The position numbers and the translations under genes were made by a program. From contig CM120642.1 of assembly GCA_051362555.1 (NCBI GenBank), positions 23,808,001-23,872,000 of the forward strand: a stretch of 64,000 nt of DNA, written 5' to 3'. Source of the stretch: Lingula anatina (lineage: Eukaryota; Animalia; Brachiopoda). The notes under the pieces were generated by a model. It saw only the letters and a list, made by a program, of their open reading frames with translations. It was not told the origin of the DNA and made no database searches. Positions 5,290 to 56,599 of the stretch are shown here, piece by piece; within the stretch, counting starts at the first letter, position 1; the number at the start of each line of letters is the position of its first letter.

Positions 5290-5415
5290 ACTTGATAGAC
5301 GGCAAGCGCACGAAGGATGTTGACGAGGAGGATGAGGAGGAACGCTCCTGTGCCGTCTGTCATGACAGGGCCACGGGACTGCACTATGGCGTCATGTCGT
5401 GTGAGGGATGCAAAG
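5290..5415 (+). CDS. NR6A1: NR6A exon, zinc finger 1
   Basis: tttcag acceptor; [42 protein letters not shown]|gtgag donor. Confidence 0.93.
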
Positions 5416-56000: not shown

Positions 56001-56599
56001 CCCATCAGTGAACTGATCGATGTACACCACAACATCAATTAGAGATCAGCTGGAAAATTTGTGTATAGTAATTTTTGAAGTTTAAAGCTTTGTATAGTTT
56101 TTTTTATATATTTAATTGATAATCTTTGTGTATTCCTGCTTAAATGTTGAATTTTGTACCACCCTTTGTCAATTTATGATTTTCATTGTACTATTTTTTG
56201 GGGGAATTTTTAAATTTATCAAAAGCTTTTACCTTCTTTTTATTTTTGAGTGCTGTATTTTAGAAAGAATAAAGCATTTTATATTTATTTTCTCCAAAAC
56301 TTTGATTATAAGATATTTCAAGTTTTAATAGTTCACCTTTGTCTGTTATAGATGTAAACGGTGTCTTGGAGCAGCGTTATGTCGAACAATGCCAAGAGCG
56401 GATTAACGCAACCCTTTTGGAGTACAGTATGCTGTTTAACCCAGACTTTAAGGATAAATTTGGACAGTTATTGCTGCGAATGTCTGAGATACGATTGTTG
56501 AGTATACGGGTTGAGGAATATCTGTACTATCGACACCTTCATGGGGATGTACCAGAACAGACTCTGTTAATGGAGATGTTACATGCCAAGAGGAAATGA
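23096..56599 (+). CDS. ftz-f1: Nuclear receptor NR5A (FTZ-F1/SF-1/LRH-1 family), spliced gene; long isoform exons 23096-23303, 45613-45744, 52384-52524, 53235-53953, 54768-54875, 55454-55607, 56352-56599 (569 aa)
   Basis: [42 protein letters not shown]1 box [29 protein letters not shown]-2 [11 protein letters not shown]; all junctions GT-AG and in phase. Attachment of the 23096 exon is inferred. Confidence 0.9.
23608..23919 (-). mobile_element. TTAA-flanked Kolobok-like non-autonomous element
   Basis: ttaa|aagggataac...gttatcgct|ttaa; core gatgacaagcacagatttcagaataat shared (inverted) with 48436-48990. Confidence 0.7.
24554..24810. mobile_element. Near-perfect palindromic MITE (~120-bp arms, very short loop)
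   Basis: GGCTTCGTTCACATGCAATGTCTATTTTCT...AGAAAATAGACATTGCATGTGAACGAAGCC, flanked by tta / taa. Confidence 0.92.
25078..25413 (+). mobile_element. Possible solo LTR
   Basis: TGTTATGA...TCACGACA ends, TATA-like at ~25168, AATAAA at ~25283, CpG retained; no TSD found. Confidence 0.4.
27051..27297 (+). mobile_element. MITE family B, diverged copy
   Basis: ggatcgattt..ccctggggagtctc...cccagggagttagaccgatccagatggatcgatc. Confidence 0.78.
27657..27766. mobile_element. Degenerate hAT-like MITE
   Basis: CAGGGCTTGAAA...TTTCGAGGCTG ends and internal ttgcaaattgcaac / gttgcaatttgcaa; no TSD. Confidence 0.5.
27936..28227. mobile_element. Hairpin MITE, family A-related, TAA TSD (PIF/Harbinger-like)
   Basis: taa|GGGAGCATTCACAT...ATGTGAATGCTCCC|taa with ~85-bp arms. 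Confidence 0.9.
30065..30375 (+). mobile_element. 5'-truncated, decayed RTE-clade LINE (3' end of ORF2)
   Basis: Across frameshifts reads [25 protein letters not shown]...WNPQGKRKR...[14 protein letters not shown]...GVVDGLC, the RTE C-terminal pattern; short GTA-type tail. Confidence 0.8.
31196..31230. repeat. (TG)n microsatellite
   Basis: Direct reading. Confidence 0.95.
31500..32440 (+). pseudogene. Decayed transposase-like ORF (probably hAT-related C-terminal half)
   Basis: Fragments [61 protein letters not shown] and LLGKAM, interrupted by stops and frameshifts; family assignment from memory. Confidence 0.55.
33075..33289 (+). mobile_element. MITE family B
   Basis: Nearly identical to 48703-48917. 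Confidence 0.9.
36098..36232 (+). repeat. Local direct repeat (~50 bp, two copies)
   Basis: tcataacca..gtcttttctaacacaatcc..ttgtga.aaaatcaca.cc twice. Confidence 0.7.
36263..36313. repeat. (TA)n microsatellite (others at 37021-37048 and 40557-40617)
   Basis: Direct reading. Confidence 0.95.
36474..36757. mobile_element. Hairpin MITE, family A
   Basis: GGCCCCATCCAGAAT...ATTCTGAATGGGGCC; homologous to 39848-40102. Confidence 0.85.
39315..39489. mobile_element. Hairpin MITE, family A, TAA TSD
   Basis: taa|GGCTTCATTTAGAATAGGGGACTAACTAGTCC...GGACTAGTTAGTTCCCTATTCTGAATAGGGCC|taa. Confidence 0.88.
39621..40156. mobile_element. Family A MITE interrupted by a second family A MITE (inner copy 39848-40102)
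   Basis: The inner copy is flanked by TTT/TTT; removing it restores the family motif catatttgatcc. Confidence 0.8.
41880..42016 (+). promoter_or_regulatory. Candidate proximal NR5A promoter
   Basis: CCAAT at 41935 and 41945, CATTGT (Sox-like) at ~41885 and ~41919, and local CpG retention in an otherwise depleted intron. Confidence 0.45.
42017..42104 (+). CDS. ftz-f1: NR5A proximal alternative first coding exon ([29 protein letters not shown]), giving a 529-aa isoform
   Basis: acaATGG Kozak context; 88 nt; T|gtatgt donor in phase 1; twin CCAAT boxes just upstream. Confidence 0.65.
43205..43358. mobile_element. Internally deleted family A MITE, TTA TSD
   Basis: tta|GGGTGCTTTCAGAAC...GTTGTGAATGGGGCC|tta; ggccatatttgatcc motif. 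Confidence 0.75.
45613..45744 (+). CDS. ftz-f1: NR5A exon, zinc finger 1
   Basis: ttttag acceptor; [44 protein letters not shown]|gtagg donor. Confidence 0.96.
45851..46030. mobile_element. Hairpin MITE, family A (closest to 4986-5163)
   Basis: gatcaaatatgg..acccacttgaatgcttgttgc...tattcagtgtc...caagcttttaag shared with the 4986 copy. Confidence 0.82.
46050..46250 (+). mobile_element. 3' end fragment of a CR1/L2-type LINE
   Basis: [21 protein letters not shown] matches the LPxxVVxAxSxNxFKNRLDxxW C-terminal motif of CR1-group ORF2. Confidence 0.72.
47035..47077. repeat. (AAT)n microsatellite
   Basis: Direct reading. Confidence 0.95.
47591..48083 (-). mobile_element. Solo LTR (493 bp), 4-bp TSD, antisense to NR5A
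   Basis: attt|TGTA...AACA|attt; on the minus strand a TATA-like GATATAAG (~47890-47883) precedes AATAAA (47748-47743); CpG retained. Confidence 0.78.
48436..48990 (+). mobile_element. Kolobok-like element (same family as 23608-23919) carrying a nested family B MITE
   Basis: aaaaggataac...gttatcccttt ends; shared core at ~48635-48685. Confidence 0.68.
48703..48917 (+). mobile_element. MITE family B (nested)
   Basis: GGCTCTATTCCCATAGATTTTAGATCGATCT...ATCTATGGAAATGGGGTG. Confidence 0.9.
49899..52029. mobile_element. 2.1-kb TTAA-flanked DNA transposon, Kolobok-like, non-autonomous
   Basis: ttaa|GGCCGGTGATAG...CTATCACTGGCC|ttaa; CpG-rich interior contrasts with the flanking intron; only short ORFs. 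Confidence 0.85.
52384..52524 (+). CDS. ftz-f1: NR5A exon, zinc finger 2 (141 nt)
   Basis: [46 protein letters not shown]; cag/gt boundaries. Confidence 0.96.
53235..53953 (+). CDS. ftz-f1: NR5A exon: FTZ-F1 box, polyQ hinge, LBD helices 1-4
   Basis: [23 protein letters not shown]...[26 protein letters not shown]|gtacg. Confidence 0.96.
53608..53728 (+). repeat. Coding CAA/CAG polyglutamine tract in the NR5A hinge
   Basis: [40 protein letters not shown]. Confidence 0.95.
54768..54875 (+). CDS. ftz-f1: NR5A LBD exon
   Basis: [19 protein letters not shown]...DIVL|gtaag. Confidence 0.95.
55454..55607 (+). CDS. ftz-f1: NR5A LBD exon
   Basis: PTGQ...[20 protein letters not shown]|gtaag. Confidence 0.95.
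56352..56599 (+). CDS. ftz-f1: NR5A last coding exon with AF-2
   Basis: [14 protein letters not shown]...[32 protein letters not shown]. Confidence 0.96.

What the first reader, a model, noticed from the sequence alone, without database searches (positions are those of the whole stretch)
5290..56599. Tandem NR6A (GCNF) -> NR5A (FTZ-F1) pair: the vertebrate NR6A1-NR5A1 linkage in an apparent invertebrate
Seen: a GCNF-type gene lies about 13 kb upstream of the distal NR5A exon, on the same strand. Known: vertebrate NR6A1 sits immediately upstream of NR5A1 (SF-1) in the same orientation; GCNF (repressor) and NR5A (activator) both bind extended AGGTCA half-sites and act antagonistically, e.g. on Oct4/Pou5f1. 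Inference: the NR5A tail [13 protein letters not shown] is protostome-like, so the cluster may date to the bilaterian ancestor and represent a retained activator/repressor germline or gonad module.
Basis: partly seen in the sequence, partly recalled or inferred. Interest (0 to 1): 0.85.

Follow-up and report, generated by a model that had tools for sequence, protein, structure and literature searches.

The report
Brachiopod keeps vertebrate GCNF–NR5A pair
In the lamp shell Lingula, a fast-changed copy of the gene regulator GCNF lies just upstream of NR5A on the same strand, as in vertebrates, so this gene pair likely dates from the common ancestor of protostomes and deuterostomes, and GCNF is likely a separate old gene from the insect and mollusc receptor HR4.

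Summary
Observation confirmed. The window matches Lingula anatina (brachiopod, protostome) RefSeq proteins. Gene 1 (5290-9768, six exons, open frame) groups with deuterostome GCNF/NR6A1 in DBD, LBD and combined trees (98/98, 100/100, 100/100). An NR5A-duplicate origin is rejected (AU p=3.8e-5). Gene 2 is NR5A, on the same strand; its two annotated first exons start 7.5 and 13.3 kb after the GCNF stop. Both genes share a scaffold in 7 of 7 echinoderms checked (605 kb in Anneissia), and two teleost gene models fuse them in the same order. The linkage is therefore probably bilaterian-ancestral. Gene 1 looks like GCNF, not HR4, which suggests these are ancient paralogues; this rests on a by-eye comparison, as HR4 was in no tree. 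The activator/repressor germline module has no support here: Lingula GCNF is very divergent, has a Lys-to-Met change in its recognition helix, and has a paralogue on another scaffold. Still open: gene order in echinoderms, other protostomes, expression, and an unexplained 205-codon antisense frame between the genes. No paper on the invertebrate linkage turned up in 10 searches, and the scan had not noted it before.

The parts
5290..5415 (+). GCNF-type gene, exon with first zinc finger (first coding exon lies upstream of the window)
   Evidence: Pfam zf-C4
6045..6185 (+). GCNF-type gene, second zinc finger exon; carries Met where other receptors have Lys/Arg after the two Phe of the recognition helix
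7786..7841 (+). GCNF-type gene, 56-bp T/A-box exon
8088..8204 (+). GCNF-type gene, exon with the GCNF-like helix after the A-box
8461..9280 (+). GCNF-type gene, hinge and most of the divergent ligand-binding domain
9533..9768 (+). GCNF-type gene, last exon with GCNF-like C-terminal helix and stop codon
10760..11377 (-). Unexplained 205-codon open frame between the two genes; possible small or terminal exon of a convergent gene, or a mobile-element relic
   Evidence: 1 of 200 shuffles; no Pfam, PDB or confident fold
17291..17393 (+). NR5A alternative first coding exon (RefSeq isoform X2)
23096..23303 (+).
45613..45744 (+). NR5A first zinc finger exon
52384..52524 (+). NR5A second zinc finger exon
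53235..53953 (+). NR5A FTZ-F1 box, poly-Gln hinge and start of ligand-binding domain
54768..54875 (+). NR5A ligand-binding domain exon
55454..55607 (+). NR5A ligand-binding domain exon
56352..56599 (+). NR5A last exon with AF-2 helix and stop codon

Best explanation
A divergent GCNF (NR6A1-type) gene lies head-to-tail upstream of NR5A in Lingula, the same order as vertebrate NR6A1-NR5A1, and the pair is likely an inherited relic of a tandem duplication in the NR5/6 ancestor before protostomes and deuterostomes split. It likely survived in slowly rearranging genomes, possibly helped by enhancers interleaved across the locus, not because the two proteins work as a dedicated antagonist pair. Each gene likely acts as its own transcription factor. 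NR5A keeps the FTZ-F1 box and AF-2 of an activator of extended half-sites. The GCNF keeps both zinc fingers and a folded ligand-binding domain and would act as a repressor, with DNA preference likely shifted by the Lys-to-Met change. Shown: gene structure, order, strand, tree position against NR5A and outgroups, same scaffold in echinoderms. Inferred: ancestral adjacency, GCNF being distinct from HR4, all regulatory function.
For: Gene 1 scores best against the mouse/human GCNF DBD structure 5krb, 125.5 bits against 98.9 for the next hit. It groups with deuterostome NR6A by DBD alone 98/98, LBD alone 100/100 and both 100/100; AU rejects a clade with NR5A, p=3.8e-5. Its post-DBD part scores 60.5 bits on a deuterostome GCNF profile against 4.9 (NR5A), 6.9 (TR2/4) and 9.6 (RAR). 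By eye against the alignment in supplement file 5 of PMC4388693, at 13 DBD positions where Lottia HR4a, Biomphalaria HR4 and Drosophila HR4 agree and differ from human GCNF, gene 1 equals GCNF at 6, HR4 at 1 and neither at 6. Two teleost models (Labeo, Silurus) read NR6A1 then NR5A as one protein. The vertebrate pair is described as a tandem duplication (PMC12998091, passages) and as one block of conserved non-coding elements (PMC3923872, passages). The two Lingula genes share three intron positions and phases; this is weak, since such positions are, from recall, common among nuclear receptors. The AlphaFold model has a well-formed LBD (block pLDDT 72-95 over residues 321-520).
Against: No HR4 or NR5B row was in any tree, and gene 1 is a long branch (1.33-2.02 changes per column). 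Only one protostome shows the linkage; no other protostome GCNF appeared, although one search listed only 120 of 618 hits down to 375 bits and an equally divergent GCNF would score 275-296 bits. The echinoderm evidence is same-scaffold only, read from equal contig lengths, with no order, strand or distance; the seven species are related, and five of the scaffolds are 10 Mb or more. RefSeq accession gaps range from 6 (Amphiura) to 547 (A. rubens) and were not calibrated. A possible gene lies between the two. No expression evidence for gene 1. No conserved non-coding element was tested.
Confidence: 0.7

Rival explanations
1. The pair is a co-regulated activator/repressor module for germline or gonad: NR5A activates and GCNF represses the same extended half-sites, and the linkage is kept for that reason.
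For: In mouse, LRH-1 and GCNF compete for one Oct4 element (PMC2233893, passages). Vertebrate NR6A1 and NR5A1 share one block of conserved non-coding elements (PMC3923872, passages). The P-box Glu and Lys and the GGR of the extension are kept in gene 1.
Against: The same paper reports NR6A1 highly expressed and NR5A1 shut off in one ES line. The linked vertebrate gene is NR5A1, not the ES-cell activator LRH-1. No site enrichment in the window. Lingula GCNF DBD is 65% identical on average to deuterostome GCNFs, which are 91% alike among themselves, while Lingula NR5A stays at 89%. The second Lingula GCNF lives on another scaffold. Oct4/POU5 is, from recall, vertebrate-specific.
Confidence: 0.12
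2. Gene 1 is simply the Lingula orthologue of protostome HR4 (one NR6A gene per bilaterian), drawn to deuterostome GCNF because HR4 was missing from the trees. The NR6-NR5A linkage could still be old.
For: Surveys file mollusc and insect HR4 as the GCNF homologue in group 6A (PMC4388693 passages; PMC7827873 table). HR4 was in no tree. Gene 1 has the HR4 residue at 1 of 13 diagnostic positions.
Against: 6 of 13 diagnostic DBD positions equal GCNF. The LBD has the GCNF Tyr-Pro segment and Phe-Leu motif that the HR4 rows lack. In the LBD tree it falls beyond the long (2.04) GCNF stem. Mollusc HR4s cluster with Drosophila HR4 at posterior 1 in PMC4388693, so a brachiopod HR4 should resemble them.
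Confidence: 0.1
3. The adjacency is coincidental or secondary: both genes sat on one ancestral chromosome and came together separately in Lingula and vertebrates.
For: Five of the seven echinoderm matches are scaffolds of 10 Mb or more, which shared chromosome ancestry alone could explain. Only one protostome case.
Against: Same order and strand in Lingula and teleosts. Shared 605-kb and 3.4-Mb scaffolds in a crinoid and a sea star. A rough estimate (inference, assuming about 3,000 genes on a chromosome and two GCNF copies) gives about 3 in 10,000 for landing directly upstream on the same strand.
Confidence: 0.06
4. Gene 1 is a recent Lingula-specific duplicate of NR5A, or a decaying pseudogene.
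For: Adjacent and same strand; very long branch; Pfam does not detect its LBD; no informative reads on its exons in four RNA runs.
Against: AU test p=3.8e-5. Six canonical exons and an open frame. The 3 differences from the RefSeq model all lie outside the zinc fingers and LBD. Folded LBD.
Confidence: 0.02

Closest known systems
Vertebrate NR6A1 (GCNF) - NR5A1 (SF-1) tandem pair (PMC3923872, PMC12998091)
   Same: Same two subfamilies, same order and strand, a gap of about 7-13 kb, long 5' introns in NR5A.
   Different: Found in a protostome. The GCNF is far more divergent (DBD 65% identical, LBD missed by Pfam), has Met at a recognition-helix Lys/Arg position and an intron between the two zinc fingers, and has a paralogue on another scaffold. 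A possible antisense frame lies in the gap.
Deuterostome GCNF/NR6A1 (echinoderm, hemichordate, amphioxus, tunicate, vertebrate; PDB 5krb)
   Same: Tree position in DBD and LBD, helix after the A-box, Tyr-Pro segment in the LBD, C-terminal helix.
   Different: Long branch. Lys-to-Met in the recognition helix, seen only in the two Lingula proteins among 351 DBD motifs in hand (mostly NR5A and NR6A). Arg where deuterostome GCNF has Gly in the T-box.
Protostome HR4/GRF (NR6A2; Drosophila, Lottia, Biomphalaria; PMC4388693)
   Same: Group 6; same P-box; same start of the first finger.
   Different: Gene 1 matches GCNF at 6 and HR4 at 1 of 13 diagnostic DBD positions and has GCNF-type LBD motifs (by eye). 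HR4 is usually treated as the protostome counterpart of GCNF; this gene argues for two ancient lineages.
NR5A / FTZ-F1 (RefSeq XP_013388791.1 and XP_013388792.1, Lingula anatina)
   Same: Gene 2 is this gene: FTZ-F1 box, ESCKG P-box, AF-2; groups with lophotrochozoan NR5A (97/92).
   Different: Only allelic differences (one residue shorter in the poly-Pro/Gln hinge; one change in the X2 first exon).

Membership tests
NR6A / GCNF (gene 1) | C4 DNA-binding domain closest to NR6A1 | tested here: met
   5krb 125.5 bits against 98.9 for the next hit; tree 98/98
NR6A / GCNF (gene 1) | Ligand-binding domain groups with GCNF independently of the DBD | tested here: met
   60.5 bits against 4.9-9.6 for other profiles; LBD tree 100/100; helical fold
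NR6A / GCNF (gene 1) | GCNF-type helix after the A-box and GCNF-type C-terminus | tested here: met
   alignments; helix 136-143 in the model
NR6A / GCNF (gene 1) | Closer to GCNF than to HR4 in a tree holding both | tested here: inconclusive
   no HR4 sequence could be fetched for a tree; by-eye count of 6 against 1 of 13 positions favours GCNF
NR6A / GCNF (gene 1) | Basic residue (Lys/Arg) after the two Phe of the recognition helix | tested here: not met
   Met in both Lingula paralogues; Lys 305, Arg 44, Met 2 of 351 motifs. The matching RAR residue Arg113 is listed among the DNA-recognising residues, the RXR one is not (PMC7515732 passages). This is a superfamily feature and bears on binding, not on descent.
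NR6A / GCNF (gene 1) | Binds DR0 or extended half-sites and represses | not testable with these tools
   needs binding and reporter assays
NR5A (gene 2) | FTZ-F1 box, ESCKG P-box, AF-2 helix, groups with NR5A | tested here: met
   NR5B was not in the trees
Conserved NR6A-NR5A microsynteny | NR6A upstream of NR5A on the same strand | tested here: met
   window; fused teleost models
Conserved NR6A-NR5A microsynteny | No gene between the two | tested here: inconclusive
   96 of 99 intergenic frames of 48 codons or more scanned, none reaches a Pfam cut-off; no Rfam hit; but a 205-codon antisense frame is unexplained
Conserved NR6A-NR5A microsynteny | Adjacency in invertebrate deuterostomes | tested here: inconclusive
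   same scaffold in 7 of 7 echinoderms; order and distance not available; hemichordates and amphioxus not paired
Conserved NR6A-NR5A microsynteny | Linkage in further protostomes | not testable with these tools
   no other protostome GCNF retrieved; searches too insensitive to exclude one; no animal genomes on hand
Genomic regulatory block / shared enhancers | Conserved non-coding elements or co-expression across the pair | not tested
   no relative's DNA was available; RNA runs uninformative

The most novel reading that the evidence does not exclude
The last common ancestor of protostomes and deuterostomes had two separate NR6 genes, GCNF and HR4, with GCNF fixed directly upstream of NR5A. 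Most protostomes lost GCNF and vertebrates lost HR4. Lingula is a rare protostome that kept the GCNF-NR5A pair, duplicated GCNF and rewired its DNA recognition (Lys to Met). Insect HR4 is then not the orthologue of human GCNF, and the vertebrate NR6A1-NR5A1 locus is over half a billion years old.
Probability: 0.55. Interest if true: 0.62.

Novelty: new member of a known kind. Interest (0 to 1): 0.5.

Why it matters
It would push the origin of the NR6A1-NR5A1 locus, a key gonad, adrenal and body-axis locus in vertebrates, back to the bilaterian ancestor. It would also correct the common table that lists HR4 as the protostome form of GCNF, which matters when fly or worm HR4 results are read across to mammals. 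Lingula offers a natural variant of a very conserved DNA-reading helix, and a linked and an unlinked paralogue with which to test whether the linkage has a regulatory cause. Both genes are already named correctly in RefSeq; what is new is the arrangement and its dating.

Tried and rejected
Whole genome: none held, so no search for Lingula HR4 or flanking genes. RNA: no RNA holder listed. Four raw-read runs with the same species label (tissue unknown, 6-25% of each read) were laid on 3600-20200 only. Mean depth was 0-0.35 in the bins over gene 1 and no gene 1 splice joint was among the 15 of 133 joints shown; there was no positive-control gene in the stretch, so this is inconclusive. NR5A first-exon joints were not tested. 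HR4 for the tree: the metagenome scan gave 80 of 190 loci and none looked like HR4, HR39 or GCNF. The ESM Atlas gave only generic receptor clusters. phmmer of the hinge-LBD exon over 1.84 billion representatives found only the two Lingula proteins. Self-regulation: no excess of NR5A sites and no DR0. Accession proximity as a proxy for adjacency was seen but not used as proof. Recent NR5A duplicate: rejected. Deuterostome source: rejected. Literature: 10 full-text searches listed no paper whose title or abstract start reports the invertebrate linkage; most listed papers were seen only as listings. Term searches in the supplements of the Lingula genome paper (PMC4595640) and the hemichordate genome paper (PMC4729200) found no mention. 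Kuo et al. 2005 and Weikum et al. 2016 were not held; they, subscription papers on amphioxus and sea urchin receptors, and bioRxiv supplements may bear on novelty. The scan's earlier notes held nothing relevant.
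Full report
Source and anatomy. The large NR5A exon is 100% identical over the aligned query to 'steroidogenic factor 1 isoform X2 [Lingula anatina]', so the window comes from a brachiopod, a lophotrochozoan protostome. NR5A has seven coding exons from 23096 to 56599, matching RefSeq isoform X1, and a second first exon at 17291-17393 matching isoform X2. Gene 1 has six exons from 5290 to 9768, all AG/GT-bounded, and reads 497 codons without a stop. It differs at 3 residues from XP_023930589.1, annotated as NR6A1 on a scaffold of the same length (709,367 bp) as NR5A. 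Its first 24 residues were not found in the window. The gap from the GCNF stop is 7,522 bp to the X2 start and 13,327 bp to the X1 start.

Is gene 1 GCNF? Its best match among solved structures is the GCNF DBD, 125.5 bits against 98.9. Trees held 16 deuterostome NR6A, 22 NR5A and 13 outgroup rows for the DBD, a subset of 32 rows for the LBD and of 24 rows for both. Rows were dropped for run time, or for lacking a DBD or LBD. In all three, gene 1 and a second Lingula gene (XP_013418263.1, on a 2,166,018-bp scaffold) join deuterostome NR6A at 98/98, 100/100 and 100/100. Forcing them together with NR5A costs 40.3 log-likelihood units, p-AU 3.8e-5. The LBD, which Pfam misses, scores 60.5 bits on a deuterostome GCNF profile and under 10 on NR5A, TR2/4 and RAR profiles. 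It folds as a helical receptor domain with Foldseek matches to receptor LBDs and to 5krb. The branch is long, which the tree tool flags.

GCNF or HR4? Published surveys treat HR4 as the protostome member of NR6A (PMC4388693, passages; PMC7827873, passages and table; PMC9535869, passages and supplement list). No HR4 sequence could be fetched for a tree. I compared by eye with the alignment in supplement file 5 of PMC4388693, leaving out the Lottia HR4b row, whose DBD there is identical to an NR1J row. At 13 DBD positions where three HR4s agree and differ from human GCNF, gene 1 equals GCNF at 6, HR4 at 1 and neither at 6. Its LBD has the Tyr-Pro segment and Phe-Leu motif of GCNF that the HR4 rows lack. 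Mollusc HR4s cluster with fly HR4 at posterior 1 in that paper, so the HR4 type existed in the protostome ancestor. A GCNF type in a brachiopod then implies both genes existed before the protostome-deuterostome split (inference). From recall, and from no call, the sea urchin has been annotated with both a gcnf and a grf gene, which would fit.

How old is the linkage? In vertebrates the pair is described as a tandem duplication (PMC12998091, passages) and as one block of conserved non-coding elements (PMC3923872, passages). Two teleost gene models read NR6A1 then NR5A in one protein. This shows a shared scaffold, not order or distance, and the species are related. Diadema, Lytechinus, Apostichopus, the hemichordates, amphioxus and tunicates had only one gene of the pair in hand. 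No other protostome GCNF was retrieved. One search listed 120 of 618 hits down to 375 bits, while a left-out Lingula GCNF scores 275-296 bits, so absence elsewhere is not shown. Inheritance from the bilaterian ancestor is the simplest reading.

How it likely works. NR5A is a conventional FTZ-F1-box activator (DBD 89% identical on average to 21 orthologues). The GCNF is intact but fast-evolving: its DBD is 65% identical to deuterostome GCNFs, which are 91% alike among themselves. Both Lingula copies have Met where 349 of 351 motifs in hand have Lys or Arg. The equivalent RAR residue, Arg113, is listed among DNA-recognising residues, while the RXR equivalent is not (PMC7515732, passages). Binding is likely shifted or weakened, not abolished, since the P-box Glu, Lys and following Arg remain. 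A repressor role follows from mouse GCNF (PMC2233893, passages) and is untested here. I favour a relic of tandem duplication kept in slowly rearranging genomes, perhaps held by interleaved enhancers, over a functional antagonist module. The documented Oct4 rival is LRH-1, not the linked NR5A1. The two linked genes are oppositely expressed in one human ES line. The GCNF LBD is dispensable for Oct4 silencing in fetal ovarian germ cells (PMC3676325, abstract). The window shows 2 NR5A-type sites against 2.5 expected and no DR0 within 2 mismatches.

Loose ends. Of 99 intergenic frames of 48 codons or more, 96 were scanned and none reaches a Pfam cut-off; Rfam found nothing. A 205-codon frame on the - strand at 10760-11377, with an acceptor-like site and an ATG near its start, is longer than in 199 of 200 shuffles and has no relative or fold. 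It may be a small convergent gene, which would make the pair near-adjacent rather than strictly adjacent. Four RNA runs of unknown tissue were uninformative.

Novelty. Both genes are correctly named in RefSeq and the vertebrate pair is known. Ten full-text searches and term searches in the supplements of PMC4595640 and PMC4729200 found no report of the invertebrate linkage or of a brachiopod GCNF. Passages of PMC8222990, PMC8363021, PMC2749838 and PMC10396339 add only that NR6-like genes are reported in a flatworm and, weakly, in Nematostella. Subscription papers were not searchable. Verdict: a real, probably ancient microsynteny and a likely correction to NR6 orthology; a new member of a known kind; interest 0.5.

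Noticed in passing
window 10760-11377 (-): 205-codon open frame with a pyrimidine-rich acceptor-like site near 11350 and an ATG shortly after; no homologue, fold or RNA signal found.
   Followed up: partly
P0122 (XP_013418263.1), another Lingula scaffold: Second Lingula GCNF paralogue on a different scaffold from this NR5A; shares the Lys-to-Met change, so that change predates the duplication.
   Followed up: partly
P0244 and P0282 (Amphiura filiformis): Two near-identical GCNF records on the NR5A chromosome; one accession is only 6 numbers from NR5A.
   Followed up: no
P0247 (Labeo rohita), P0245 (Silurus asotus): Database gene models that fuse NR6A1 and NR5A into one protein; likely annotation artefacts that record the tandem order.
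   Followed up: yes
window 19773-20043, 27049-27265, 33074-33288, 48702-48916, 59710-59904, 62417-62648: A family of about 200-270 bp interspersed repeats in both orientations; the copy near 19.8 kb draws many RNA reads from elsewhere.
   Followed up: no
window 24551-24813, 18332-18577, 27935-28228, 39850-40100, 36474-36757: Palindromic, MITE-like elements of about 250-300 bp.
   Followed up: no
window 30064-30447: GC-rich stretch with overlapping open frames and a Tyr-Ile-Gly motif recalling a GIY-YIG endonuclease relic; no Pfam hit.
   Followed up: partly
window 2090-2230 (+): Weak O-methyltransferase match (E 0.014, below cut-off) inside the GCNF first intron; may be chance or a decayed gene.
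   Followed up: no
window 53618-53728: Poly-Gln/His tract in the NR5A hinge; the adjoining Pro run is one residue shorter than in RefSeq.
   Followed up: no
PMC4388693 supplement file 5: The Lottia 'HR4b' row has a DBD identical to the Lottia NR1J2 row joined to the HR4a LBD, so it may be a chimeric model.
   Followed up: no
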